Positions 21,904-34,423 of a DNA stretch of 35,791 nucleotides are shown piece by piece. A model generated the notes under the pieces. That model made no database searches. It was not told the DNA's origin and saw only the letters and a program-made list of their open reading frames with translations. Position 1 is the stretch's first letter. Each line of letters starts with the position of its first letter. The DNA is from a virus (Duplodnaviria > Heunggongvirae > Uroviricota > Caudoviricetes): the IMG/VR virus record IMGVR_UViG_2534682162_000012. The stretch is one strand, 5' to 3'. Position numbers and translations under genes: made by a program.

Positions 21904-22255
21904 TAATCAACAAAATACCTTCAATCACTCCTATTGCTGCTTGAAGTTGTTTTCTGATTGACCCGTCAGAGCATTTCCGTTTCTTTGCTATTGAACGGAG
22001 TGAAATACCGATAACAAAGTGAGCAATGATCAGTTCATATTCTTCTGGCTTATATTTCCGCAATCGCGCAACACAGCTGTCAATCATGATTCCTTCATCA
22101 TCATCGCATTGTTGGCGTGTTTTCTTTCCATGAGGTAGTAAACCTTTAAACCCTGCAGCAACAGGCTGCCAGTCCACACCACTGTTATCTGCTGCAGCCC
22201 ATGCTCCCCAGCGGTCCAATACTTCATACATATCACGCATCAACCTTCTCCACAA
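21890..22255 (-). CDS. Late-gene antiterminator Q (Phage_antitermQ-type)
   Basis: 121-aa protein with the VLDRWGAWA...AGFKGL motif I recall from Q-family antiterminators of 933W-type phages; positioned upstream of lysis genes. Confidence 0.65.
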   Translation of the reverse strand: MWRRLMRDMYEVLDRWGAWAAADNSGVDWQPVAAGFKGLLPHGKKTRQQCDDDEGIMIDSCVARLRKYKPEEYELIIAHFVIGISLRSIAKKRKCSDGSIRKQLQAAIGVIEGILLIIKPL

Positions 22256-22257
22256 AA

Positions 22258-23253
22258 TCAGGCCAGCACGCCAATTGCCAGCGCACGATCGATAAAACGA
22301 AATATCAGCTCCAGCTGGGAGCCATACTTCTCTTCAAATGCCACGGTATCCGCATGCAGCTCGTCGTGATGCTTTCTGCACAAAGGCAACACAAAGAGAT
22401 CATGCGCTTTTGTACCCATTCCACCCTGACCGTGGCCTATCAGGTGGTGGGGATCATCAGCAGGCTTTCCACAACATGCACACGGCTGCGTCTTAACCCA
22501 GCGCGTGTACTTTTCATTAACCCAGCGGCGACGTTTTGGGCGTAACATAAAAGACTCCGGCGACTCCGGATCCACTTTCAGCGCCAGCACCTTTTTCGCC
22601 TTATCCTGGATGATGCTGGTGGCAGGAACCGAAGGCACAAGGTCACTTTCCCGGGTGACAGACGGCACAACAGGCTTCGGTAATCTCAGTGCCTTACGGG
22701 CTGCACTTTCCGGTAAGGCATCCGCCAGGTCATTACGAATCAGCCACCAGCACAGTTCCGGAATTGTCACAACGTGACTATCATCAAAACCGAGATCACG
22801 GCGCACAACAGATAACACCCAGCGGGCACAGTTATCCGTTGCCATTGATTCCAGCCGTTCCGTGAACTGATCGCGCAGCTGGTTATCGCAGTGCCAGCAC
22901 AGACGAATTGCTCCCGGAGCGTGCCGCATTGTGGTCATGTTCTCGCTGTGCCAGTCGGAATGAAGCCACTGGCAGCCTTTTTCACGAAGTAACCAGCTTT
23001 CAAGACATTCCACGCCACCAGCACGACGGATCACTGCCTCATTGCGGAACACGGCCCGAACGGCAGGATCATCCGCCAGCGGTTGTGATGCCGCCGGAAC
23101 GGCACCACTGGCGAAAGATGAATAACGTTCCGGCTCAGGCTCCAGCAGGACACGCCCCTGCATAAACAGGGGCATCAGCTCTGAACCTGGTCTGAACAAT
23201 ACGATCCCCATACGCGGGGCAATTTCAGGGGTCAGTAGTGCTCTCACAGTCAC
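22258..23253 (-). CDS. DUF968-like prophage protein with C-terminal Cys/His HNH-like motif
   Basis: 331-aa ORF; C-terminal CACCGKP..HHLIGHG...CRKHHDELH; resembles YdfU-type proteins. Confidence 0.55.
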   Translation of the reverse strand: MTVRALLTPEIAPRMGIVLFRPGSELMPLFMQGRVLLEPEPERYSSFASGAVPAASQPLADDPAVRAVFRNEAVIRRAGGVECLESWLLREKGCQWLHSDWHSENMTTMRHAPGAIRLCWHCDNQLRDQFTERLESMATDNCARWVLSVVRRDLGFDDSHVVTIPELCWWLIRNDLADALPESAARKALRLPKPVVPSVTRESDLVPSVPATSIIQDKAKKVLALKVDPESPESFMLRPKRRRWVNEKYTRWVKTQPCACCGKPADDPHHLIGHGQGGMGTKAHDLFVLPLCRKHHDELHADTVAFEEKYGSQLELIFRFIDRALAIGVLA

Positions 23254-23254
23254 C

Positions 23255-24052
23255 TCAATGAACGGTATCGAGCAGCTTTAACAGCTCAGGGAATCGGGAT
23301 TCGAAGAAATGCGGCTGCGTCTCGCGCGGATTTGCAGGACTGGTAATGTTCTTGCCGAACATGCAGCCTTTCGCCGTCAGCGACCAGAATTTTTTGATGT
23401 TGTTAATCGCGGTACGGCTGTATCGTTCGCGTTGTTCAACGATCCCCAGCTTCGCCATCTGGTGATATGCCTGATTAGCTGTCAGGCGGATACCATACTG
23501 TTTCAGCAGTGCACTCAGCGACAGCGTAGGGCGACTTGAGCCATCAGGCGCGTCAGCAGGAGCATCAATGGCATAGCGCGGTGCCAGATTCGGTAAACCA
23601 ACAGCCTCCTGGAGTTTCTGACAGGCACCAAGCACTGAAGAGTTAGACAGGTTTAATTCCCGGCGCATAAAGTCCAGCAGAATCACACCAGCCTGCATCT
23701 TGTCAGCAGCCTGTCCGGATAATTTTTCCGGTGCGCTGGTTACCATATCGAAAGTACGGATCACCTTCAGATGGAATGACGGGCTGATCCACATTGCATA
23801 GGCATACACCAGTTCCTTGCAGACATACGTCCCCTGGTTATTTCCGCCACGAATAACGTTAACTGGCTCTATATTGACCGAGTTGCAAATCTGCAACTCG
23901 CTTATTAAACGTTCAGTTTGCTCATTGCGGAGCCAGAATGCAGGCTTATGCTTATCCAGAGAACCGGCAGCCCTGTGCAGATCGTTCAGGCTGTAACGCC
24001 CATAAGCATCACGACGAACTTCAATACCATCAATGACCATCAGATTATTCAT
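23255..24052 (-). CDS. KilA-N domain protein (antirepressor-like)
   Basis: N-terminal KilA-N-like region (IDGIEVRRDAYGRYSLNDLHRAAG) with a distinct C-terminal domain. Confidence 0.6.
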   Translation of the reverse strand: MNNLMVIDGIEVRRDAYGRYSLNDLHRAAGSLDKHKPAFWLRNEQTERLISELQICNSVNIEPVNVIRGGNNQGTYVCKELVYAYAMWISPSFHLKVIRTFDMVTSAPEKLSGQAADKMQAGVILLDFMRRELNLSNSSVLGACQKLQEAVGLPNLAPRYAIDAPADAPDGSSRPTLSLSALLKQYGIRLTANQAYHQMAKLGIVEQRERYSRTAINNIKKFWSLTAKGCMFGKNITSPANPRETQPHFFESRFPELLKLLDTVH

Positions 24053-24071
24053 ACTTCGTTTCTCCTCTTAA

Positions 24072-24461
24072 TCAGGCGGCTGCACCCGCCGGTTTCTCGT
24101 ACTTACTGATAGTGATCTCGACCTTCCCTTCCGGGATAACCGGTCCCCACTCCACCAACATTCTTTTCACTTGGCTGTCGTCTTCCCACACACCCGCGTG
24201 GGTCAGGGCGTCAAACAGCGCCTTGTTATAGTTGTCCAGATCGCGGATCCGGTTATCCGGAGGAAACAACACGATCTCCACTGAAGCAGGTGCCGACGTT
24301 GGTTTCGGCAGACGACGTAACTGCTCAACTATTGCTGCGCACGCTGCGCTCTGGAATTTTCGCCCCGCCGCGCTTATCAGGCTCTTACCAGCAAACGCCC
24401 CTTTGTTGGGGTGTCGCCAGTACGTGTTCACGCTGGGCGGAAAAGGCAGGATCAGCTTCAT
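24072..24461 (-). CDS. rusA: Holliday junction resolvase RusA-like
   Basis: 129-aa ORF with the characteristic N-terminal PPSVNTYWRH motif and acidic catalytic region (DLDNYNKALFDAL). Confidence 0.8.
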   Translation of the reverse strand: MKLILPFPPSVNTYWRHPNKGAFAGKSLISAAGRKFQSAACAAIVEQLRRLPKPTSAPASVEIVLFPPDNRIRDLDNYNKALFDALTHAGVWEDDSQVKRMLVEWGPVIPEGKVEITISKYEKPAGAAA

Positions 24462-24784
24462 ACTTTCAGGCCCCTCTCATGTAACCAGTGGGTTGCACGC
24501 AGCTTTGCGTTTTCCTCACCGGCAAGCAGTGCGCGGATAATCCCGACCGCCTCGCTGTCGTCGTCCTTCACCGCGGTATGAAGCGTTATCCCCCGGGCCA
24601 CGCCACGCTTTATCGTGATGACGCCTTTTTTCTCCAGTGCACGAAGATGCTCTACCGCTGCATTCACTGAACGGTATCCCAGCATGGTAGCCACCTCCTG
24701 ATTGGTTGGCGGGAAGCCACGTTCTTTCTGGTAAGAAATCAGCATATCCAGCACCTGCTGCTGGCATTGAGTTAACGTCGTCAT
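24458..24784 (-). CDS. LexA DNA-binding-domain homologue lacking the S24 peptidase domain
   Basis: Start at the internal ATG (MTTLTQCQQQVLD...), which overlaps the upstream stop as TAATG; aligns by eye with LexA N-terminal winged helix (PPT..E.A..LG.RS.NAA.EHL.AL..KGVI.I..G..RGI.L). Confidence 0.55.
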   Translation of the reverse strand: MTTLTQCQQQVLDMLISYQKERGFPPTNQEVATMLGYRSVNAAVEHLRALEKKGVITIKRGVARGITLHTAVKDDDSEAVGIIRALLAGEENAKLRATHWLHERGLKV

Positions 24785-25272
24785 TAAGCCCCCACGTAAT
24801 TCCCTGACAGATACCACTCTTCACCCGATGCAGCGCGCTTGCTGCTTTTCCGTAAGCACCGCTCACGACGTGCCAGAAAATTGTTTCGTTCTGGCTGGGA
24901 GTGGCTTTCACGGAATGCCGCCATCCACACGGTTGCAGCACGACGGTATAAGCCCCTTGACTCCAGTTCTTCAGCCTGGCGGGTCAGGCACAAAATCACC
25001 CGTGGATCGTTAGTGCCGACATAGAAATTGCGCACAGGTCTGGTTTCACGAACTGGTTGTGGTTCCGGCTCCAGCGCTCTCTCAGTCAGGCGCGGGAAAT
25101 GTCTGCGTGTATCTCCTTCACAACGGTGAGCCACACGCCCACTCTGACGTAACTTGCTTGCTGACTGCAGAACGCGCTGCCGTGAGTAACCTGCAAAAGC
25201 ATCCGCAATGTCTCCGGAAGTACACCCCGGATGGGCTTCAATGAATTTCTGAACTTCATTCAAAAGACTCAT
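24784..25272 (-). CDS. Hypothetical basic protein (162 aa), replication-region gene
   Basis: ORF between the replication initiator and the LexA-like gene; Arg-rich; no motif recognised. Confidence 0.4.
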   Translation of the reverse strand: MSLLNEVQKFIEAHPGCTSGDIADAFAGYSRQRVLQSASKLRQSGRVAHRCEGDTRRHFPRLTERALEPEPQPVRETRPVRNFYVGTNDPRVILCLTRQAEELESRGLYRRAATVWMAAFRESHSQPERNNFLARRERCLRKSSKRAASGEEWYLSGNYVGA

Positions 25273-25274
25273 GA

Positions 25275-26216
25275 TTACCCCCTGAATCCTGCCGGGATCT
25301 GGCTGTAGTCCACGTTGTCGTAACTGGATTTGAAGTACGGGTCTTCGCGTTTTTCGGTGTACGTGCTTACGGACGGCGATAAGCGCAGGGAAAGCTCATC
25401 CCATTTTTCCCGCAGCTTCGACGGGCTGAGCACGTTACGGCACCAGAACGGATCGCGGCTGACGCGGCTGTACATCTCGCAGATTTGTTTGTGAGTACGA
25501 CCATCCTGCACACACATCAGGCGAATTTCGTTTGCCCAGGCTGTCCAGTTCGGTTCTTTGGGACGAACCACCTCGCCGTCACATTCGGCAGCCAGCTCGT
25601 ACAGGGCGATGATTTTTTTCCAGAGCCACTGTGCGCAGGTCAAATCATCCTGCGTTCCCCACTGGCGCTTTTTAGGGCTGAATACAACCGCATCAGGATG
25701 GCGAGTTAAAAAATCCTGTTCATCCGTCTGCGTGTCCGGTTGCGAAGCGTCCGGACGAGAAGGTTTTTTATCTGACGGATCATGTTTTGATTTTACTGAC
25801 GGATCCCCGCCAGATTCTGACGGGTGAAAACCCGCTTTTTTGCCAGATTTCGACGCATCAAATTTTGACGGGTCAGATTTTGATGCGTCAGATTTTGACG
25901 GGTCAGAATCTGACAGTTGAGAAAATGCCGCTGCCTGAAGCTTCGCAACGTTAAGCTGATAAACATTCGACGCATTGCGGTTACCCTGGCGACGCGCCTT
26001 ACGCGTTAACCAGCCTTCTGCTTCCAGCCGTGCGATAGCCGTTCTGACGGTACTCATCCCCGCGCCAATCTGACGGGCAATGGTTTCAATTGATGGCCAG
26101 CACACACCTTCGTCATTACTGAAATCAGCCAGGCGGGCCATAATTGCCACGCTGGATAATTTCATGCCTGACGCTGCGCAACCATCCCATACATAGCCGG
26201 TTAATTTAGTGCTCAT
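25275..26216 (-). CDS. Replication initiator protein (lambda O-like; N-terminal HTH)
   Basis: 313-aa ORF with an N-terminal HTH-like domain, a central low-complexity SDxSKxD repeat region encoded by the iterons, and a C-terminal domain. Confidence 0.65.
   Translation of the reverse strand: MSTKLTGYVWDGCAASGMKLSSVAIMARLADFSNDEGVCWPSIETIARQIGAGMSTVRTAIARLEAEGWLTRKARRQGNRNASNVYQLNVAKLQAAAFSQLSDSDPSKSDASKSDPSKFDASKSGKKAGFHPSESGGDPSVKSKHDPSDKKPSRPDASQPDTQTDEQDFLTRHPDAVVFSPKKRQWGTQDDLTCAQWLWKKIIALYELAAECDGEVVRPKEPNWTAWANEIRLMCVQDGRTHKQICEMYSRVSRDPFWCRNVLSPSKLREKWDELSLRLSPSVSTYTEKREDPYFKSSYDNVDYSQIPAGFRG
25811..25918. repeat. Origin-like iteron array inside the initiator gene
   Basis: Five contiguous copies of a 15-bp unit (consensus about CAGATTTTGACGGGT) plus an outlying copy at 25811 and TGACGG half-sites from about 25770. 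Confidence 0.6.
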
Positions 26217-26225
26217 GACCGACCT

Positions 26226-26564
26226 CTATTTCCCTGAATTTACGACGAAACTGTTCGAGCGGACTGAAGCACTCATGCTCATAGCCTTCGCGGAGGTAGA
26301 TAACCCGTTGTGTTTCCGGTTCCCAACGAATGACTCTGACGGGCACTCCGTAGTGATCTTTGAACCAGCGGTTAACTTGTCGCAAAGGACTGTCTCCTTC
26401 TGCCGGTTGAAATCACCCACAGCCCACTCTGCAAAGCTGTGGGTTACAATTTCCCTGTCACCTGGTACATTTACTGCATAGCAATACTCCACCTTCGCTT
26501 TTCCACCCGGTACAGGAAGCGCAATCAGTTGCGAGCGACGGTAGTGTGTTGTTAAACTGTTCAT
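26226..26564 (-). CDS. Hypothetical protein (112 aa, YmfM-like)
   Basis: ORF between the regulator block and the initiator; length matches e14 YmfM from memory. Confidence 0.4.
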
Positions 26565-27145
26565 GCGTTAGTTTCTCCACAGTCACGACACGCCACGGCG
26601 CCCGGAGCTGCACACTCGCGGGCGTCATTACTTTCTGAAATGCAAAAGATTTTGTAGACCAGTGCTGCATGCTCCTGCAGCTTCGAAATTGAGAGGTACA
26701 GCTCGTCGTTAATTGCTGTTTTCTCATGCGGTTCCACTACACCGTCTTCGATTGCTGAACGAATCTGTTTTGAATAACTGCCGATCTGTTCAATGACTTC
26801 CAGCAGACGCTGGTTAATATCGGCGTTGTCCACATCCTCGACGTCAGGAAGAGACACAAATACGCCATTTGCAGACTGCGCCACAGCATCAGCAATGAAG
26901 TGAGTGCCACCAGCACGCTGTAAAACCATTGCCCATCCCAGCGGGAAAATCTGATCGCCATCGGCACGAAGGCGGTTAAATAATGCGCTCTCTGTTACAT
27001 CCAGCCAGTCAGCAGCTTCAGCGTAACCCCCCGGCAACGCTGCGATAGTTTTTCTGACAGCTTTCACGTACCACTTAGGCTGTTTTTCTACTTTCCAGTG
27101 ATGCTTACCCACGGCTATCTCCTTAAAACTGTGGTTACTTTTCAT
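26561..27145 (-). CDS. Putative early regulatory protein (YmfL/CII-like)
   Basis: Start chosen at the internal ATG ([17 protein letters not shown]...) directly downstream of the Cro-like gene; function inferred from position only. Confidence 0.4.
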
Positions 27146-27383
27146 CTGATGAATCTTTAATCTTTTGAAAAATATCTGGACGTAATTTTTCTTTTGATAT
27201 GCCAGTGGTCTTTTCAATGAATATCGAGAGCTTTGCAGGGGGACGCTTTTCTCTGTTCAACCAGTTCCAGACATGTTGTTGCTTTACTAAATGACCGCTG
27301 CTGGCTGTGAGCTTCCGAGCCAATTCTGATTGACCACCAGCCAGAGCGATTGCCTCCGATAAGGCTAATTGCTCAGGTGTCAT
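27135..27383 (-). CDS. Cro-like HTH transcriptional regulator
   Basis: 82-aa ORF divergent from the repressor gene with an HTH-like region (ELARKLTASSGHLVKQQHVWNW); AGGAG RBS. Confidence 0.6.
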   Translation of the reverse strand: MTPEQLALSEAIALAGGQSELARKLTASSGHLVKQQHVWNWLNREKRPPAKLSIFIEKTTGISKEKLRPDIFQKIKDSSDEK

Positions 27384-27518
27384 AGCTTTCTCCTTTTTAG
27401 GTAGTTAAGTTGTTACGAGTTGCAAGAATACAACATTAACAACTTTTATCACAACTTTTAGGTGTTGGAAAGCTAAAACATAAAGTTGTAACCTCATCAA
27501 AAAAGAGAGGGATATGTT
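27384..27518. promoter_or_regulatory. OR-like operator/promoter region between cro and cI
   Basis: Heptamers AAGTTGT (27407, 27483) and ACAACTT (27439, 27451) arranged symmetrically as AAGTTGT-N25-ACAACTT-N5-ACAACTT-N25-AAGTTGT. Confidence 0.55.
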
Positions 27519-28205
27519 GTGAAAACACTGGCAGAACGATTAAAGATAGGTAGAGAGAAAGCTGGCATGAGCCAAGCTCAACTAGCTGAAAAAATTGGAC
27601 TTTCACAACAATCTGTAGCCAAAATAGAGAATGGCGAAACTCTACAACCGCGCAAAATTAAAGAAATTGCAAAAGTTTTAGGTGTATCACAAAAGTGGTT
27701 ACAACTTGGTATTGAAGACAACGCATCCATACCTGATCTTGTTGTAAAAGAAGCAGAAAGCACCGCATTAGACCCCGATATTTTCGTAAACATTCCTGTT
27801 TTAGATGTCGAGTTATCGGCAGGTAACGGATGTCTGGCTGAAATAGTTGAATCAGCTATTGACTGGTTTCCGTTAAGAAGAGCAGATTTGAGAAAATCTG
27901 GCGTATGTGCATCTAATGCCAAGATCGTAAAAATATGGGGGAACAGTTTATTACCGGTTCTCAATAATGGAGATCTTGTTGCCGTTGATATTTCTCAAAC
28001 CGTTCCTATTCGTGATGGCGATCTTTATGCCGTACGAGATGGTGTATTGCTAAGGGTTAAAATACTTATCAACTTACCTGACGGTGGCTTGATTCTTAGA
28101 AGCTTCAACAAAGATGAGTACCCAGATGAAATACTCACCTTTGAAGATAGACGAGCCAGAATTCATGTTATAGGTAGGGTATTCTGGTCATCGCGAACTT
28201 GGTAA
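27519..28205 (+). CDS. CI-like repressor (XRE HTH plus S24 LexA-like peptidase domain)
   Basis: GTG start with AAGAGAGGG RBS; N-terminal HTH (MSQAQLAEKIGLSQQSVAKIENGE) and C-terminal S24-like autocleavage domain with Ala-Gly-type cleavage region. Confidence 0.85.
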   Translation: MKTLAERLKIGREKAGMSQAQLAEKIGLSQQSVAKIENGETLQPRKIKEIAKVLGVSQKWLQLGIEDNASIPDLVVKEAESTALDPDIFVNIPVLDVELSAGNGCLAEIVESAIDWFPLRRADLRKSGVCASNAKIVKIWGNSLLPVLNNGDLVAVDISQTVPIRDGDLYAVRDGVLLRVKILINLPDGGLILRSFNKDEYPDEILTFEDRRARIHVIGRVFWSSRTW

Positions 28206-29078
28206 TGCATCGAAAAGCATTTCTTCAGAAATAATTTTAAGTTTTGCACCATTATCATCCCTATAAGATATAGCCTTTTCGATCTTCCTTCCGTGACTTG
28301 AGAATTTCCAATCACGGGAGGAAAGCGTCCCAATTACTAAAAAATCCAACTTTTGAGTAATTCCACTACTGATGTTCCCACCAGCATTTTTAATCAAATT
28401 TTCAACTACGGCTCTCTTTCCTGCAACAAAAGTGCCTGTAAGACAATAGGTTTTACCCTCTAACTCTATCGAAGCCCCTACATCAATAGGCAGCCTGGTC
28501 GCCAAACCATCCACCACCCCACTTTCCAAGTCACATCCTGTGAAGTCTACTAATGCCTTATGTAGAGTTAAACTCTCATCTTCAGTAATAACACCATCTT
28601 TAAGAATTTCCTTTACAAGTGCATAAAGTTTTTTTCCTGGGTAGTTGTTCTTCAAAGCTCCATTTTGCTCAAGCCACCAATTAAGATATCTTATTTCTTC
28701 TTGAGTTAAGTTCCGATCAGCAATTAATCCTTTACATAGTCCATTAAGTAAATGGACATCTACATCCTTGGAGTAAAAATCAATTTCAGGGATATCAAGA
28801 ATTTCCCTCTGTATTTGGAGAAGGCTATTTTTAAGGTCATCACGTTCTTCTGATGTGATTATTCCATCCGCAAGAATATCCGACACCCGTGCTGATAGAC
28901 TTTTTATAACTCCATTATTGATAATCTGCTTTGCTTCAAGTAACCATGTATCTAAGTAAAGAACCTCCTCTTCACGGACAACTCCATCTGCAATGATTCC
29001 ATCAATGATGCTAATCAAGTTAGCAAATAACTTGTCCCGGTTCTGTGTGTAATTAAAAGCGTAAAGCGCGTCTTCCAT
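28188..29078 (-). CDS. Tandem-repeat protein with C-terminal BRCT domain (296 aa), accessory
   Basis: Start at ATG 29078 (MEDALYAF...) with AAGGAGG RBS; four repeats of about 45 aa (DG(V/I)(V/I)..EE...L..WL); C-terminal GKTYCLTGTF...DFLVIG BRCT-like fold; AT-rich by eye; overlaps cI 3' end by 18 nt. Confidence 0.65.
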   Translation of the reverse strand: MEDALYAFNYTQNRDKLFANLISIIDGIIADGVVREEEVLYLDTWLLEAKQIINNGVIKSLSARVSDILADGIITSEERDDLKNSLLQIQREILDIPEIDFYSKDVDVHLLNGLCKGLIADRNLTQEEIRYLNWWLEQNGALKNNYPGKKLYALVKEILKDGVITEDESLTLHKALVDFTGCDLESGVVDGLATRLPIDVGASIELEGKTYCLTGTFVAGKRAVVENLIKNAGGNISSGITQKLDFLVIGTLSSRDWKFSSHGRKIEKAISYRDDNGAKLKIISEEMLFDALPSSR

Positions 29079-29135
29079 ACAACCTCCTTTTTTTGATAAT
29101 CCTTGCACTCCTTGGCTACTCGTTCAAACCACATA

Positions 29136-29200
29136 AAGTTGTTGACAACATTCAAAACCACAACTAAATTACAACTTAAAGGTGTTAAAACAACGAACAG
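29136..29200 (+). promoter_or_regulatory. OL-like operator with pL-like promoter
   Basis: Consensus -35 TTGACA (29142..29147), 17-nt spacer, -10 TAAATT (29165..29170); carries the same AAGTTGT and ACAACTT(A/T)(A/T)AGGTGTT motifs as the cro/cI intergenic region. Confidence 0.5.
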
Positions 29201-29280
29201 GCAGGACGCCCACGAAGTAGCCGCCGGTGGCGTATGAATGACCGGATGATTCGTTAAATACTATGTGTAAGAGAGCGCAA

Positions 29281-29484
29281 ATGAACCGTTATTTCACATG
29301 CTCGTTTTGTGGCGCAAACGAGCTGCAGGCAAAAAAAATCATCGCCAAAGGCGGAAAAGATGAAGTTGCTATCTGCTCTGAGTGCGTAGTCTTGTGTGTC
29401 GGGGCATTAATCAATATCAGCACAACTATTCAGTTCACACCAAATGAGAATGCGCCTTTAGATGCGCGGAAATCTGGAGGTTAA
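29281..29484 (+). CDS. Stand-alone ClpX-type C4 zinc-finger protein (67 aa)
   Basis: FTCSFCGANELQAKKIIAKGGKDEVAICSECVVLCVGAL aligns by eye with the ClpX N-terminal zinc-binding domain ([31 protein letters not shown]); first gene after the pL-like promoter. Confidence 0.6.
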   Translation: MNRYFTCSFCGANELQAKKIIAKGGKDEVAICSECVVLCVGALINISTTIQFTPNENAPLDARKSGG

Positions 29485-29492
29485 AGAACAAA

Positions 29493-29768
29493 ATGAAAGT
29501 CCAGATTTTAAACAATAACTGTGAAGTCGTTTGGTCATACGACATAGCCGCCCCTGTAGATCAGAGCGGCGATAGCTGGACCAATGGGAAACATCAGATT
29601 ATGGCTGGAGTTGTGTTCTCTTTACGCCGTGCTTTGGAACAGGCTGAAGTATTTCCATCAGACCCTGAATGGAAATGGCCTTTTTCTATTTGTCCAAATT
29701 CGGAGAGCACATTTCAGAAAATTGGTCAGAAAGTCGCACTCGAAGAGCATCAGCCAACTGTTTCCTGA
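29493..29768 (+). CDS. Hypothetical protein (91 aa)
   Basis: ATG with GGAGG RBS 9 nt after the zinc-finger gene stop; no recognised motif. Confidence 0.45.
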   Translation: MKVQILNNNCEVVWSYDIAAPVDQSGDSWTNGKHQIMAGVVFSLRRALEQAEVFPSDPEWKWPFSICPNSESTFQKIGQKVALEEHQPTVS

Positions 29769-29931
29769 TTTTTTCAGGTAACTCGTCGGCATCGCAGAAA
29801 CAACAACGCTCGATCATGTTGAAAGCCGATTCGTAGAACTGTTTCTGCTGAGTGTCGCTGAGACAGGAAAAGAGCGACGTTACGATGATTTTATTAATTG
29901 CATTATCAAGTTCTTTTTCATCAAAAGTCAT
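29686..29931 (-). CDS. Hypothetical protein (81 aa), convergent, uncertain
   Basis: ATG with AAGGA RBS; overlaps the 3' end of 29493..29768 by 83 nt, so one of the two may be mis-called. Confidence 0.3.
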   Translation of the reverse strand: MTFDEKELDNAINKIIVTSLFSCLSDTQQKQFYESAFNMIERCCFCDADELPEKIRKQLADALRVRLSDQFSEMCSPNLDK

Positions 29932-30186
29932 TTGATTTTCCTTTTATGTATACGGGCTTAAAAGGATACCACCGAGCCTGAAGTGGTGAAAAGACAGGCA
30001 CATAACAGCTAAGTATTTTCAACCAAAGAGAATCCTTAGCGTTGTGGTGAATGCGGCTCAGCGCACGCGGGTTAAGGTTGAGGCTGACAGTCGACCTTCT
30101 GTGGATACCCACCCGTCTGGTGTGCAACCTTCGCCAGGCACCGGGAGGCACCCGGCACCACAACTTTATGCTGTGTGTAGTCCTGG

Positions 30187-30231
30187 CGGTACCAGTTTGT
30201 ACCCTTGCTTCCGGCTGGTACCGTCCTTTTT
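30187..30231 (+). terminator. Intrinsic terminator-like hairpin in the early-left operon
   Basis: Perfect 9-bp stem CGGTACCAG/CTGGTACCG (30187..30195, 30215..30223) with 19-nt loop, then TCC and TTTTT. Confidence 0.45.
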
Positions 30232-30368
30232 ACAAAACAGAGAAGAGCATCACCGGACGACGGGCTCATAACCCAATCCATCCGGGCGGCTGCTACCGCA
30301 GGTGTTCTTCTCTGTTTTGTGGAGAAACTAATCGGCCTTGCAGGGTCGATATGATGAGGAGCAGCAAA

Positions 30369-30731
30369 ATGGCTAGCGAACGCAGTACTGATGTGCAGGC
30401 ATTTATCGGGGAGCTGGACGGCGGCGTATTTGAAACCAAAATCGGCGCAGTTCTCAGTGAAGTCGCTTCCGGTGTGATGAACACGAAAACCAAAGGTAAG
30501 GTCTCACTCAACCTGGAAATCGAACCATTTGATGAGAACCGTGTGAAAATCAAACACAAACTCTCATATGTTCGCCCGACTAACCGCGGGAAAATTTCCG
30601 AAGAAGACACCACCGAAACGCCGATGTATGTCAATCGCGGTGGTCGCCTGACTATTCTGCAGGAAGACCAGGGACAATTACTGACTCTTGCCGGTGAACC
30701 TGACGGAAAACTCCGCGCAGCAGGTCATTAA
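30369..30731 (+). CDS. Hypothetical protein (120 aa, YfdP-like)
   Basis: Start at ATG 30369 with GAGGAG RBS; the longer upstream ORF runs through GC-rich non-coding-looking sequence. Confidence 0.5.
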   Translation: MASERSTDVQAFIGELDGGVFETKIGAVLSEVASGVMNTKTKGKVSLNLEIEPFDENRVKIKHKLSYVRPTNRGKISEEDTTETPMYVNRGGRLTILQEDQGQLLTLAGEPDGKLRAAGH

Positions 30732-30796
30732 TATCGTTCTTAATTAACTGATTATTTATCTCATCACTGAATATCTTTATATAGTGAGGACTTATT

Positions 30797-31621
30797 ATGT
30801 CTCAGAACTTAGACGCAACCGCAATTAATCAAATCCATGCCCTTATTTCTGCTCAGGGTGTTAATGAAATTATCAGTAAGATTGGTGCCGATGCTGTGGC
30901 ATTGCCTGAGAATTTCCGCATTCATGATCTGGAAAAATTTAATTTAAATCGCTTCCGTTTCCGTGGTGCGCTTTCCACTGCCAGCATCGATGACTTTACC
31001 CGTTATTCTAAAGATCTTGCAGATGAAGGCACCCGCTGCTTTATCGATGCTGATAATATGCGTGCCGTCAGTGTGCTTAACCTGGGTACTATTGATGAAC
31101 CAGGTCACGCAGATAACACCGCCACTCTCAAACTGAAAAAGACAGCACCGTTCTCTGCTCTGTTGTCTGTTAATGGCGAGCGTAACTCCCAGAAATCACT
31201 GGCAGAATGGATTGAAGACTGGGCCGACTACCTTGTGGGCTTTGATGCTAATGGTGACACCATTCAGGCAACAAAAGCGGCTGCGGCGGTCCGTAAAATC
31301 ACGATTGAAGCAAACCAGACCGCTGATTTTGAAGATAATGACTTCAGCGGCAAACGCTCCCTGATGGAGTCTGTCGAAGCGAAGACCAAAGACATTATGC
31401 CAGTGGCATTTGAATTTAAATGCATTCCGTTTGAAGGTCTGAAAGAACGTCCGTTTAAATTACGCCTCAGCATTATCACTGGCGATCGTCCGGTACTGGT
31501 TCTGCGCATTATTCAGCTGGAGGCGGTGCAGGAAGAAATGGCTAACGAATTTCGTGATCTGCTTGTTGAGAAATTCAAGGACAGCAAAGTAGAAACCTTT
31601 ATTGGTACTTTCACCGCCTGA
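30797..31621 (+). CDS. DUF2303-like protein (274 aa, YfdQ-like)
   Basis: Length and N-terminal sequence recall the CPS-53 YfdQ family; RBS GTGAGGA upstream. Confidence 0.6.
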
Positions 31622-31748
31622 TTTCATTACTGCAAATGCCCCTGCGGGGGCATTTATGGAAACGTAATTTACTCAATAATCGCCGGATGGTGAGGGATTC
31701 TTTTTACCAGAATTCAGCGCGGTGCAGCGCATATACGTGGAGAACAAA

Positions 31749-32285
31749 ATGTCATTTATTAAAACTTTTTCCGGGAAGCATTTTTATTATGACAGGATAA
31801 ATAAAGACGACATCGATATTAACGATATCGCGGTTTCCCTTTCAAATATCTGTCGCTTTGCCGGTCATCTTTCGCACTTCTACAGCGTCGCCCAACATGC
31901 GGTTCTTTGCAGCCAGCTGGTGCCGCAGGAATTTGCTTTTGAAGCGTTAATGCATGATGCAACAGAAGCGTATTGCCAGGACATTCCCGCACCACTGAAA
32001 CGCCTTCTTCCTGACTATAAACAAATGGAAGAAAAAATAGACTCCGTAATCCGTGAGAAATACGGATTACCCCCAGTTATGAGTACGCCCGTGAAATATG
32101 CCGATCTCATCATGCTGGCAACCGAACGCCGCGATCTCGGGCTTGATGATGGCTCTTTCTGGCCTGTACTGGAAGGTATCCCGGCAACAGAGATGTTCAA
32201 CGTGATTCCACTGGCACCGGGCCATGCCTACGGGATGTTTATGGAACGCTTTAACGAGTTATCGGAGTTACGCAAATGCGCATGA
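31749..32285 (+). CDS. HD-domain phosphohydrolase (YfdR-like 5'-deoxynucleotidase)
   Basis: Start at ATG 31749 with GGAGA RBS gives 178 aa; HD motif context (HLSHFYSVAQHAVLC...LMHDATEAY). Confidence 0.7.
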   Translation: MSFIKTFSGKHFYYDRINKDDIDINDIAVSLSNICRFAGHLSHFYSVAQHAVLCSQLVPQEFAFEALMHDATEAYCQDIPAPLKRLLPDYKQMEEKIDSVIREKYGLPPVMSTPVKYADLIMLATERRDLGLDDGSFWPVLEGIPATEMFNVIPLAPGHAYGMFMERFNELSELRKCA

Positions 32286-34347: not shown

Positions 34348-34423
34348 TGGTGCCGATAATAGGAGTCGAACCTACGACCTTCGCATTACGAATGCGCTGC
34401 TCTACCAACTGAGCTATATCGGC
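34348..34423 (-). tRNA. thrW: tRNA-Thr (anticodon CGU)
   Basis: 76-nt minus-strand sequence GCCGATATAGCTCAGTTGGTAGAGCAGCGCATTCGTAATGCGAAGGTCGTAGGTTCGACTCCTATTATCGGCACCA with cloverleaf pairing, anticodon loop TT-CGT-AA and 3' CCA. Confidence 0.85.

What the first reader, a model, noticed from the sequence alone, without database searches (positions are those of the whole stretch)
29281..29484. Stand-alone ClpX-type zinc-finger protein as first gene of the early-left operon
The 67-aa product carries the CSFCG...K.IA.....ICxECVxLC signature of the ClpX N-terminal zinc-binding domain but none of the AAA+ ATPase body. That domain mediates ClpX recognition of adaptors and of certain phage substrates (lambda O, MuA). 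A phage-encoded free copy could act as a decoy that titrates substrates or adaptors away from ClpXP, for example stabilising this phage's O-like initiator. It sits first after the pL-like promoter, so it would be among the earliest proteins made.
Basis: partly seen in the sequence, partly recalled or inferred. Interest (0 to 1): 0.7.

Follow-up and report, generated by a model that had tools for sequence, protein, structure and literature searches.

The report
Phage-encoded free ClpX zinc-finger domain
A temperate phage makes, as its first early protein, a 67-residue stand-alone copy of the zinc-finger domain the host ClpX protease uses to recognise some of its substrates; the domain assignment is solid and already in databases, but the idea that it acts as a decoy is plausible and untested.

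Summary
ORF 29281-29484 (+) encodes a 67-aa protein that passes Pfam's curated threshold for zf-C4_ClpX. Its family profile matches only ClpX N-domains among solved structures, and its AlphaFold model superposes on the E. coli ClpX zinc-binding domain (TM 0.79-0.84). It has no AAA+ body, and residues 52-67 are a disordered, variable tail. The core is under strong purifying selection.

The positional claim also holds. A TTGACA-17-TAAATT promoter flanked by two copies of the cI operator lies upstream. In 78 of 80 related viral contigs, and in every other enterobacterial locus examined, the gene is the first one after a cI-type repressor gene, alongside several different immunity types.

NCBI already names the protein "ClpX C4-type zinc finger protein". 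No functional study was found. It is optional cargo: 98 of 5,426 complete E. coli genomes carry it.

The decoy idea has in-vitro precedent, since free E. coli ZBD blocks RssB-dependent sigma-S turnover, and a phage precedent in lambda RexB. The peptide-binding groove is only partly conserved, and the suggested client (a lambda-O-like initiator) is not supported. Verdict: ordinary at domain level, moderately interesting and testable as a candidate ClpXP modulator.

In passing I found a covariation-supported structured RNA in the 5' leader that matches no Rfam family.

The parts
27519..28205 (+). cI-type repressor gene (HTH_3 + Peptidase_S24), which defines the immunity region. The ZBD gene lies downstream on the same strand.
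   Evidence: Pfam HTH_3 1.4e-15 and Peptidase_S24 6e-15; PHROG 4 transcriptional repressor.
29128..29142 (.). Operator-like site (OL, inverted copy of ACAACTTWWAGGTGT) abutting the -35 hexamer.
   Evidence: 13 matches in the window against 2.3 expected. They cluster in the cI/cro intergenic region (27451-27465, 27475-27489) and around this promoter. See, families D1/D3.
29142..29170 (+). pL-like sigma-70 promoter, TTGACA-17 nt-TAAATT.
   Evidence: 10 of 12 consensus positions, the best promoter-like site in 27000-30900.
29171..29185 (.). Second operator copy (ACAACTTAAAGGTGT, exact match to the motif), immediately downstream of the -10 hexamer.
29190..29260 (+). Conserved structured RNA in the 5' leader of the pL transcript. 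It has an outer helix, a small invariant hairpin, and an inner helix with a conserved 12-nt loop. It belongs to the operon, not to the ZBD gene.
   Evidence: Covariance model R1 scores 91.2 bits. On 28 sequences, 11 of 14 pairs show compensatory changes and 94% of cells are paired, against 22-41% when partners are slid. No Rfam family matches.
29269..29275 (+). Shine-Dalgarno-like AAGAGAG, 5 nt before the ATG.
   Evidence: Read from the sequence. Orthologues carry AGGAG or GGGAG at the same place.
29281..29484 (+). CDS of the 67-aa stand-alone ClpX-type zinc-finger protein (stop codon included).
29290..29415 (+). Zinc-finger core, residues 4-45. Zinc ligands are C7 and C10 (29299-29310) and C32 and C35 (29374-29385). 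Groove residues Y4, F5, F9 and A22 are conserved. The KGGKDE hairpin is 3 residues longer than in ClpX.
   Evidence: Alignments. Residue roles are taken from PMC8808172 and PMC7804408.
29434..29481 (+). Variable C-terminal tail (residues 52-67), predicted disordered.
   Evidence: pLDDT below 50. The same holds in an 86-aa homologue. Tails differ in length and sequence among homologues, and some are fused to other small domains.
29493..29768 (+). Next gene of the operon (91 aa, PHROG 3195, unknown function). A GGAGG at 29476-29480 lies inside the last ZBD codons.
   Evidence: This gene is not a constant partner: other loci carry different neighbours, and in some contigs it is itself the first gene after the leader.

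Best explanation
The gene encodes a small zinc-binding protein: a ClpX-N-domain-type treble-clef finger, probably dimeric like the ClpX domain, followed by a roughly 16-residue flexible tail. It is optional cargo placed first in the cI-repressed leftward early operon of SfV/e14-like temperate phages. It is therefore silent in the lysogen and made within minutes of infection or induction.

Most likely it acts as a free ClpX N-domain. It would bind, through the conserved hydrophobic groove, peptide motifs that normally dock on the N-domains of the host ClpX hexamer. These motifs include adaptor tails of the SspB/RssB type and cryptic N-domain degrons in substrates such as replication or transposition proteins and antitoxins. 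By competing for them it would transiently spare a subset of ClpXP clients while leaving N-domain-independent (ssrA-type) degradation intact. This is functionally analogous to lambda CIII against FtsH or lambda RexB against ClpXP.

Shown here: domain identity, fold, selection, promoter and operator context, conserved position.
Inferred: zinc binding, dimerisation, peptide binding, competition with ClpX, and the identity of the protected client, which remains unknown.
For: Homology and fold place it with the ClpX N-domain and nothing else. Groove positions known to matter in E. coli ClpX are retained or conservatively replaced across the family: F17->F9 invariant, A30->A22 invariant, L12/L13->Y4/F5 aromatic, and the hydrophobic helix face V41/L43/C44/I48->V36/L38/C39/L43 (residue roles from PMC8808172 and PMC7804408).

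Free E. coli ZBD in trans inhibits RssB-dependent sigma-S degradation (PMC7226468), so the mechanism is physically feasible. Lambda RexB, encoded in the equivalent part of the immunity region, inhibits ClpX- and ClpA-dependent proteolysis of lambda O, Phd and MazE (PMC11077077).

The early, repressor-controlled expression slot is conserved across several immunity types. Distant stand-alone ZBDs also sit in phage early or immunity regions. One lies next to the repressor of a Mu-like prophage in Oleidesulfovibrio, and Mu biology is ClpX N-domain dependent. A target as universal as ClpX fits such a spread. Strong purifying selection acts on the finger while the tail is free to vary.
Against: No binding or degradation data exist. 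H23, which is important for SspB and MqsA recognition in E. coli ClpX, is replaced by L/M/Q/R. I47 (Houry numbering I46) is A/T/V/K. The beta-hairpin that pairs with the SspB tail is 3 residues longer. Identity to host ClpX ZBD is only 36-40%. A pure mimic would be expected to track the host domain more closely.

The variable tails, and natural fusions to other small phage domains (P0020, P0013), hint that the finger may be a carrier module for something else. ZBD modules also occur in many non-ClpX proteins: tandem arrays, a protein that continues into about 330 further residues after two fingers, and proteins next to ECF sigma factors. The fold is therefore not tied to ClpXP by necessity. 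The gene is dispensable, since most phages with the same operon lack it.
Confidence: 0.4

Rival explanations
1. The protein acts on ClpX itself rather than on its clients. It could heterodimerise with, or dock onto, the N-domains of the ClpX hexamer. It would then either poison adaptor docking or work as a trans-acting receptor, using its variable C-terminal tail or a fused domain to bring a chosen protein (a host defence factor, or the phage repressor) to ClpXP.
For: ClpX N-domains are obligate dimers, and the hydrophobic helix face is conserved in the phage protein (for the dimer). Tails are variable and sometimes replaced by whole domains that also exist as separate first genes of the same operon (P0020 versus the L163 ORF; P0013 and relatives). 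This is the pattern expected of a constant docking module carrying exchangeable target-recognition parts.
Against: Isolated ZBD dimers are stable, so exchange with ClpX-tethered domains is not obviously favoured (inference). The tails are predicted disordered and carry no confident motif. Many family members have almost no tail (P0011, 57 aa).
Confidence: 0.2
2. ClpX-independent function. The ZBD fold would serve as a generic small dimerisation and peptide-binding module that acts on a phage or host regulator, for example modulating cI, Cro or the YmfL/CP76-type CII during the lysis-lysogeny decision.
For: The gene is always adjacent to the immunity region. It co-occurs with a CP76/YmfL-type cII in 55/57 distinct ZBD loci, against 38/81 leader-bearing loci without ZBD, and also in the Enterobacter, Salmonella and L005 loci. 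ZBD modules occur in many proteins unrelated to ClpX. S24-family proteins such as UmuD are known to carry ZBD-binding motifs (own knowledge, not tested here).
Against: The co-occurrence is confounded by phylogeny, because the ZBD loci are close relatives from E. coli and Salmonella. The same ZBD allele travels with several unrelated cI types, which argues against a repressor-specific partner. The prototype CP76 CII (phage 186) is degraded by FtsH and RseP, and the paper reporting this makes no mention of ClpX or ClpP (PMC7708051).
Confidence: 0.25
3. It is a nucleic-acid-binding zinc-finger regulator of the Ogr/Delta or Com type, controlling transcription or translation of phage genes.
For: It is small, has four Cys and is encoded by a phage. 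One source even labels a cluster member 'transcription elongation factor Elf1'.
Against: No Pfam or PHROG match to Ogr/Delta, Com or Elf1 families was found; the only curated match is zf-C4_ClpX. Structural neighbours beyond ClpX ZBD have probability 0.18 or less. The core carries balanced charge rather than a basic surface (sequence).
Confidence: 0.05
4. It is a decaying remnant or a spurious ORF without function.
For: The gene is dispensable, and roughly a tenth of the E. coli copies listed differ in length by 1 nt and are not annotated.
Against: pN is 0.12-0.30 against synonymous differences of 0.43-1.0 (saturated in 14 of 15 comparisons) across six orthologues. Core residues are invariant across Escherichia, Salmonella, Citrobacter and Enterobacter. 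The position and the ribosome-binding site are conserved.
Confidence: 0.02

Closest known systems
[quoted passage not shown]
   Same: The CxxC...CxxC treble-clef fold is the same. CSFCG, the (K/R)-hydrophobic-hydrophobic-A strand and the ICxECVxLC helix are conserved. The model superposes at 1.4-1.9 A.
   Different: It is not attached to an AAA+ ATPase. The hairpin has a 3-residue insertion (KGGKDE). H23 is not conserved. Identity is 36-40%. It carries its own variable tail.
Isolated E. coli ClpX ZBD used in trans in vitro (Micevski et al. 2020, PMC7226468; Wojtyra/Thibault/Houry work cited in PMC7804408)
   Same: Both are a free ZBD without the ATPase. The laboratory construct competitively inhibits RssB-mediated sigma-S degradation, which is the activity proposed for the phage protein.
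   Different: The laboratory construct has the host's own sequence. The phage protein is a diverged natural gene whose ligands are unknown.
Phage-encoded inhibitors of host AAA+ proteases: lambda CIII (FtsH), lambda RexB (ClpXP/ClpAP); T4 PinA and T7 Gp4.5 (Lon), the last two from own knowledge
   Same: All are small phage proteins. CIII is also in the pL operon, and RexB is also in the immunity region next to pL. RexB spares lambda O, Phd and MazE from Clp proteolysis (PMC11077077; PMC1838920 listed).
   Different: There is no sequence or fold relationship. CIII is an amphipathic helix and itself an FtsH substrate. RexB is a membrane protein. Neither is a copy of a protease domain.
ClpC2 of Mycobacterium tuberculosis, a partial homologue of the ClpC1 N-terminal domain (PMC10030653, listed)
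   Same: It is a stand-alone copy of the N-terminal recognition domain of a Clp ATPase that acts as a decoy, there for the antibiotic cyclomarin A.
   Different: It is a cellular gene from a different domain family (Clp_N repeat, not a zinc finger), and its ligand is different.
Stand-alone and tandem zf-C4_ClpX proteins of bacteria and metagenomes
   Same: The domain is the same. There are 632 representative clusters at E<=1e-3 and 2,496 clusters at E<=1e-5. PGAP names them 'ClpX C4-type zinc finger protein'. None had a described function in the papers searched.
   Different: Many are tandem (2-4, and up to about 37 repeats) or chromosomal, for example next to an ECF sigma factor. The window's subfamily has a single finger, is phage-borne and is fixed at the head of the early-left operon.

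Membership tests
[quoted passage not shown] | Profile score above the curated gathering threshold | tested here: met
   41.4 bits against 27, E=1.3e-10. The family profile hits only ClpX chains in the PDB.
Pfam PF06689 zf-C4_ClpX | Four Cys zinc ligands in two CxxC knuckles | tested here: met
   C7/C10 and C32/C35 are invariant across the family alignments apart from a few degenerate members. The spacing is 3 residues longer than in ClpX.
Pfam PF06689 zf-C4_ClpX | Treble-clef beta-hairpin plus C-terminal helix fold, as in 1OVX/2DS5 | tested here: met
   The AF2 core has pLDDT 80-94. The Foldseek top seven hits are all ClpX ZBD, TM 0.79-0.84, rmsd 1.4-1.9 A. This is a prediction, not an experiment.
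Pfam PF06689 zf-C4_ClpX | Zinc binding and homodimerisation | not testable with these tools
   The hydrophobic helix face is conserved.
Functional ClpX N-domain (adaptor and substrate docking) | Peptide-binding groove residues L12, L13, F17, H23, A30, I47 (Met-1 numbering) | tested here: inconclusive
   F17->F9 and A30->A22 are invariant. L12/L13->Y4/F5 stays hydrophobic. H23->L15 is not kept. I47->A42 is variable. The hairpin is 3 aa longer.
ClpX AAA+ unfoldase | AAA+ ATPase module, pore loops, IGF loops | tested here: not met
   The protein is 67 aa and ends 22 residues after the finger. No AAA+ hit was found.
Phage protease inhibitors (lambda CIII, RexB) | Sequence or profile similarity to those families | tested here: not met
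   The only matches are PHROGs 5259 and 20296 (unknown function), 12435 ('protease', weak) and 6797. There is no CIII or RexB family hit.
Phage protease inhibitors (functional class) | Early expression from a repressor-controlled promoter | tested here: met
   Promoter plus two operators upstream. The position is conserved. The evidence is sequence-based and there are no expression data.
Phage protease inhibitors (functional class) | Inhibition of a host protease | not testable with these tools
   This needs ClpXP degradation assays.
Anti-phage defence proteins (PADLOC) | Match to a defence-system model | tested here: not met
   No PADLOC hit for the ZBD protein.
HK022 put antiterminator RNA (considered for the leader element) | Sequence and structure similarity to putL/putR | tested here: not met
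   Covariance model R1 finds no match in HK022 22000-32000 at E<=10. Only the position and size (about 70 nt, just after pL; PMC9378689) are alike.

The most novel reading that the evidence does not exclude
Phage-type stand-alone ZBDs would be an old, dedicated family of ClpXP reprogrammers rather than passive decoys. Members run from enterobacterial lambdoid phages to a Mu-like prophage of a Desulfovibrio relative. In this reading the constant finger docks on, or exchanges into, the N-domain layer of host ClpX, and the exchangeable tail or fused domain selects a host or phage protein. Candidates are a defence factor, an antitoxin or the repressor, to be degraded or shielded. That would give the phage a programmable handle on the host's main regulatory protease in the first minutes of infection.
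Probability: 0.12. Interest if true: 0.8.

Novelty: new variant of a known kind. Interest (0 to 1): 0.5.

Why it matters
ClpXP controls sigma-S, cell-division proteins, SOS mutagenesis factors, several antitoxins, and the replication or transposition proteins of lambda and Mu, largely through the N-domain. A natural, phage-made free N-domain would be the first example of a virus copying the substrate-recognition module of a host AAA+ protease in order to tune it. It would also give a simple genetic tool for switching off only N-domain-dependent ClpXP proteolysis.

The gene is short, found in about 2% of complete E. coli genomes and in Salmonella, Enterobacter and Citrobacter prophages. It sits in a well-defined regulatory slot, so the hypothesis is cheap to test. 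If it turns out to be ClpX-independent, it still marks an unexplored family of hundreds to thousands of small zinc-finger proteins.

Tried and rejected
- **Tail docking.** An AF2 run on an 86-aa homologue with the clearest C-terminal motif (IDISFPDAP) asked whether the tail docks on the groove. The tail stayed disordered, with pLDDT below 50, so it gave no support either way.
- **Structural papers.** The primary papers on ZBD-peptide complexes (PubMed 17258768 and 22360725, and one PMC id recalled from memory) are not held. Residue roles were taken from PMC8808172 and PMC7804408 instead.
- **Lambda-O-like client.** The replication protein is HTH_36-type and gave no Phage_rep_O hit. Its N-terminus does not resemble the lambda O N-motif (the motif is recalled from own knowledge).
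- **CP76/YmfL-type CII as the protected client.** Co-occurrence is strong but confounded by phylogeny. The prototype 186 CII is degraded by FtsH and RseP. Rejected as the leading idea.
- **Constant gene partner.** The downstream neighbour varies, so there is none.
- **Defence role.** There is no PADLOC hit, and the gene sits behind a repressed promoter.
- **Leader RNA as an HK022 put homologue.** The covariance-model search was negative. Single-sequence folding was uninformative (z = -0.04), although covariation is strong.
- **Wasted scan.** One viral-contig scan used a mis-spaced pattern and returned nothing. It was repeated correctly.

Full report
**What the window is.** The window is an SfV/CPS-53-like temperate prophage.
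- It is integrated next to a tRNA gene (34351-34423, -) and host proA.
- A near-identical E. coli locus is annotated by PGAP with integrase, tRNA-Thr, proA and proB.
- The best phage match is Shigella phage SfV: 99.4% identity over 58% of a 5.5-kb query.
- The immunity region holds a cI-type repressor (27519-28205, +; HTH_3 + Peptidase_S24) and a divergent YdaS-type cro (27135-27383, -).
- Beyond cro lie a CP76/YmfL-type cII and an HTH_36-type replication protein.
- The phage's leftward early operon therefore runs on the + strand of the window.

**Observation check.** ORF 29281-29484 (+) is present as described. Three things support the 29281 start over the in-frame 29263 ATG:
- an AAGAGAG ribosome-binding site 5 nt upstream;
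- the conserved MN(N/S/R)Y N-terminus of orthologues;
- PGAP's identical 204-nt CDS, WP_001083098.1, already named "ClpX C4-type zinc finger protein".

The domain evidence is as follows.
- Pfam zf-C4_ClpX scores 41.4 bits against a curated cut-off of 27, E=1.3e-10.
- PHROGs places the protein in families of unknown function.
- Against PDB sequences, the single protein and a 17-member family profile hit only ClpX, always in the N-domain, with E down to 1e-10.
- AlphaFold2 gives a confident core and a disordered tail from residue 52.
- The seven best Foldseek PDB hits are all ClpX zinc-binding domains: TM 0.79-0.84 normalised to the target, rmsd 1.4-1.9 A, 36-40% identity. The next hit has probability 0.16.
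- There is no AAA+ module.
- Across six orthologues from E. coli, Salmonella phages, Enterobacter and metagenomes, non-synonymous differences in the core are 0.12-0.30. Synonymous differences are 0.43-1.0 and saturated (>=0.65) in 14 of the 15 comparisons. The gene is real and its protein is constrained.

**Position.**
- The best sigma-70-like site in 27000-30900 is TTGACA-17-TAAATT at 29142-29170.
- It is bracketed by two copies of a 15-nt motif, ACAACTTWWAGGTGT, at 29128-29142 and 29171-29185.
- The motif's other good copies lie in the cI/cro intergenic region. The window has 13 matches against 2.3 expected. This is the signature of a cI-repressed pL.
- A 306-aa BRCT-domain gene on the opposite strand (28188-29108) is inserted between cI and this promoter.

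Elsewhere the arrangement is simpler and conserved.
- In Salmonella phages 118970_sal3 and F1055, in Enterobacter genomes and in metagenomic contigs, the ZBD gene is the first gene downstream of the S24 repressor gene on the same strand, 150-420 bp away. The cI and cro types differ among these loci.
- In three of these immunity types, operator-like repeats shared with their own cro-cI intergenic region lie just upstream of the ZBD gene.
- Of 80 IMG/VR loci encoding close relatives, 78 have a cI-type gene upstream on the same strand. The other two are cut by the contig end. The same 100%-identical ZBD allele occurs with at least five distinct cI types.
- "First gene of the early-left operon" is therefore well supported at sequence level. 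No expression data were available.

**Distribution.**
- The gene is optional cargo: 98 of 5,426 complete E. coli genomes, a few of them frameshifted.
- It is in only 4 of 50,697 deposited phage records.
- 287 IMG/VR stretches encode a relative.
- SfV itself has a different small gene in the slot.
- Among 107 leader-bearing viral contigs with a callable first ORF, only 6 start with a ZBD. The rest start with dozens of unrelated small genes, including the window's second gene.
- More widely, stand-alone and tandem ClpX-type fingers are very common: 632 representative clusters at E<=1e-3 and 2,496 clusters at E<=1e-5.
- Some are chromosomal, for example a tandem pair beside an ECF sigma factor. 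Others are followed by a long non-ZBD region.
- Two distant single-finger members are again in phage control regions. One lies immediately after the repressor gene of a Mu-like prophage in Oleidesulfovibrio. The other lies in the cro operon of an unrelated temperate phage.

**Mechanism.** Nothing here measures function, so this section is inference.

Points in favour of a decoy:
- Isolated E. coli ZBD added in trans inhibits RssB-mediated sigma-S degradation (PMC7226468).
- The hydrophobic pocket around F16/I46 (Houry numbering) is the common docking site of lambda O, trigger factor, SspB and RssB (PMC7804408).
- L12, L13 and H23 are needed for recognition of the MqsA degron, at a site that overlaps the SspB site (PMC8808172).
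- Lambda RexB, encoded in the corresponding part of the immunity region, blocks ClpX- and ClpA-dependent degradation of lambda O, Phd and MazE (PMC11077077).
- Mapping these residues onto the family shows F invariant, A30 invariant, L12/L13 replaced by aromatic or aliphatic residues, and the hydrophobic helix face retained.

Points against a simple mimic:
- H23 is replaced.
- I46/47 is variable.
- The hairpin whose strands pair with the SspB tail is three residues longer in every family member than in any ClpX in the PDB.
- Identity to host ClpX is modest.

My best explanation is a free N-domain that competes for a subset of N-domain ligands early in infection (confidence 0.4). The identity of the spared client is open. 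Candidates are antitoxins, phage replication or regulatory proteins, and RssB/sigma-S.

Rivals:
- Direct docking on ClpX with the variable tail as a targeting part (0.2). This is prompted by natural fusions such as P0020, whose C-terminal domain exists as a separate first gene in another contig.
- A ClpX-independent role on phage regulators (0.25).
- A nucleic-acid-binding finger (0.05).
- A remnant (0.02, contradicted).

The replication protein is not of the lambda O family. The ZBD gene is absent from closely related phages that share most of this region. I also examined the CP76/YmfL-type cII.
- It co-occurs with the ZBD gene in 55 of 57 distinct loci, against 38 of 81 leader-bearing loci without ZBD.
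- It is also present in the more distant Enterobacter and L005 loci.
- The comparison is confounded by relatedness.
- The prototype of that family, 186 CII, is degraded by FtsH and RseP, and ClpX and ClpP are not mentioned in that paper (PMC7708051).
- I do not adopt it.

**Literature.** Ten full-text searches of the held library found no paper describing a function for a phage-encoded or stand-alone ClpX-type finger. The exact annotation phrase occurs once, in an unrelated preprint. The library lacks most subscription journals, so this absence is not proof.

**Found in passing: a structured RNA in the pL leader.** Aligning the regions upstream of ZBD genes showed a roughly 67-nt block, window 29190-29257. 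It is about 95% conserved among loci whose ZBD coding sequences are saturated at synonymous sites.
- The block occurs in 53 deposited phage genomes, among them SfV, SfII, SfIV, ST64B, ZF40, YeP1, SEN34 and mEp237.
- In the temperate phages inspected it lies between the repressor gene and the first leftward gene. It also occurs upstream of early genes in a T5-like Providencia phage.
- On 28 diverse copies, a three-helix structure has 11 of 14 pairs with compensatory changes. 94% of cells are paired, against 22-41% when partners are slid, and 0 of 500 shuffles reach the observed covariation.
- The unpaired stretches GCCCACGAAGUAGC, GGCNNANGAA (mostly GGCRUAYGAA) and AUNA (mostly GAUGA) are invariant or nearly so.
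- No Rfam 15 family matches.
- A covariance model built from it finds one copy in the window and one in SfV, and none in HK022.
- Size and position resemble HK022 putL (PMC9378689), and an intrinsic terminator-like hairpin lies inside the operon near 30190-30234. A cis-acting antiterminator is therefore a reasonable guess, but it is untested.
- The element is independent of the ZBD gene.

**Verdict.**
- The domain call and the positional claim are right.
- The decoy idea is reasonable, has real precedent and is cheap to test, but it is unproven.
- The protein family is already named in databases. The novelty lies only in the possible function: a phage copy of a protease's recognition domain.

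Noticed in passing
window 29190-29260 (+): A roughly 67-nt conserved structured RNA lies in the 5' leader of the pL transcript. It has two covarying helices plus an invariant small hairpin and invariant single-stranded stretches. It is present in 53 phage records and at least 120 IMG/VR contigs, between the repressor gene and the first leftward gene in the temperate phages inspected. No Rfam family matches, and it is not detectably related to HK022 put. It may be a cis-acting antiterminator.
   Followed up: yes
window 30019-30234 (+): There is a sub-threshold match to Rfam STnc100 (39.5 bits against a gathering score of 47, E=2.6e-6). It ends in a terminator-like hairpin plus a U-run, inside the early-left operon between the PHROG 3195 gene and yfdP. 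An extra operator-like site lies within it at 30160-30174.
   Followed up: no
window 28188-29108 (-): A 306-aa BRCT-domain protein (PHROG 3989, unknown function) is inserted on the opposite strand between cI and pL, the classic slot for prophage morons or defence genes. It has a weak match to the PADLOC candidate system PDC-S48 (E=2.7e-7). It is present in only about a quarter of the ZBD loci sampled.
   Followed up: partly
window 29493-29768 (+) and 29686-29931 (-): Two convergent ORFs overlap by 83 nt, and both have strong PHROG matches (3195, E=4e-65; 3311, E=1e-55). PGAP annotates only the + strand one in the near-identical E. coli locus.
   Followed up: no
L013 5001-5198 (Oleidesulfovibrio contig JBKEBF010000007.1): A 65-aa stand-alone ZBD with the same hairpin insertion sits 76 nt after the repressor gene of a Mu-like prophage, divergent from the Ner-MuA-MuB operon. 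It may be co-transcribed with the repressor. Mu transposition and Mu repressor turnover are ClpX-dependent (own knowledge).
   Followed up: partly
proteins P0016, P0024, P0043, P0148, P0220; locus L015: ClpX-type fingers occur as tandem arrays of 2-4, with one 2,505-aa protein showing 37 matched stretches. Two fingers also precede about 330 residues of non-ZBD sequence in a 465-aa protein. A tandem pair lies next to an ECF sigma-factor gene.
   Followed up: no
P0020 (L008 1301-1666) versus the first ORF after the leader in L163: The C-terminal 60-70 residues of a 121-aa ZBD protein are homologous to a separate small protein that is the first pL gene in another viral contig. This is a natural domain fusion and split, suggesting the two parts work together.
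   Followed up: no
E. coli genomes, hits H52-H53 and H61-H67: About a tenth of the E. coli copies of the ZBD gene listed are 203 or 205 nt instead of 204 and are left unannotated, so they are probably frameshifted. One plasmid copy (P0008) has a scrambled first zinc knuckle.
   Followed up: no
window 26561-27112 (-) and homologues (L010 2335-2889): The YmfL/CP76-type cII has a conserved Cys-rich C-terminus ([16 protein letters not shown]). It accompanies the ZBD gene in 55 of 57 distinct loci, against 38 of 81 without ZBD. The comparison is confounded by relatedness.
   Followed up: partly
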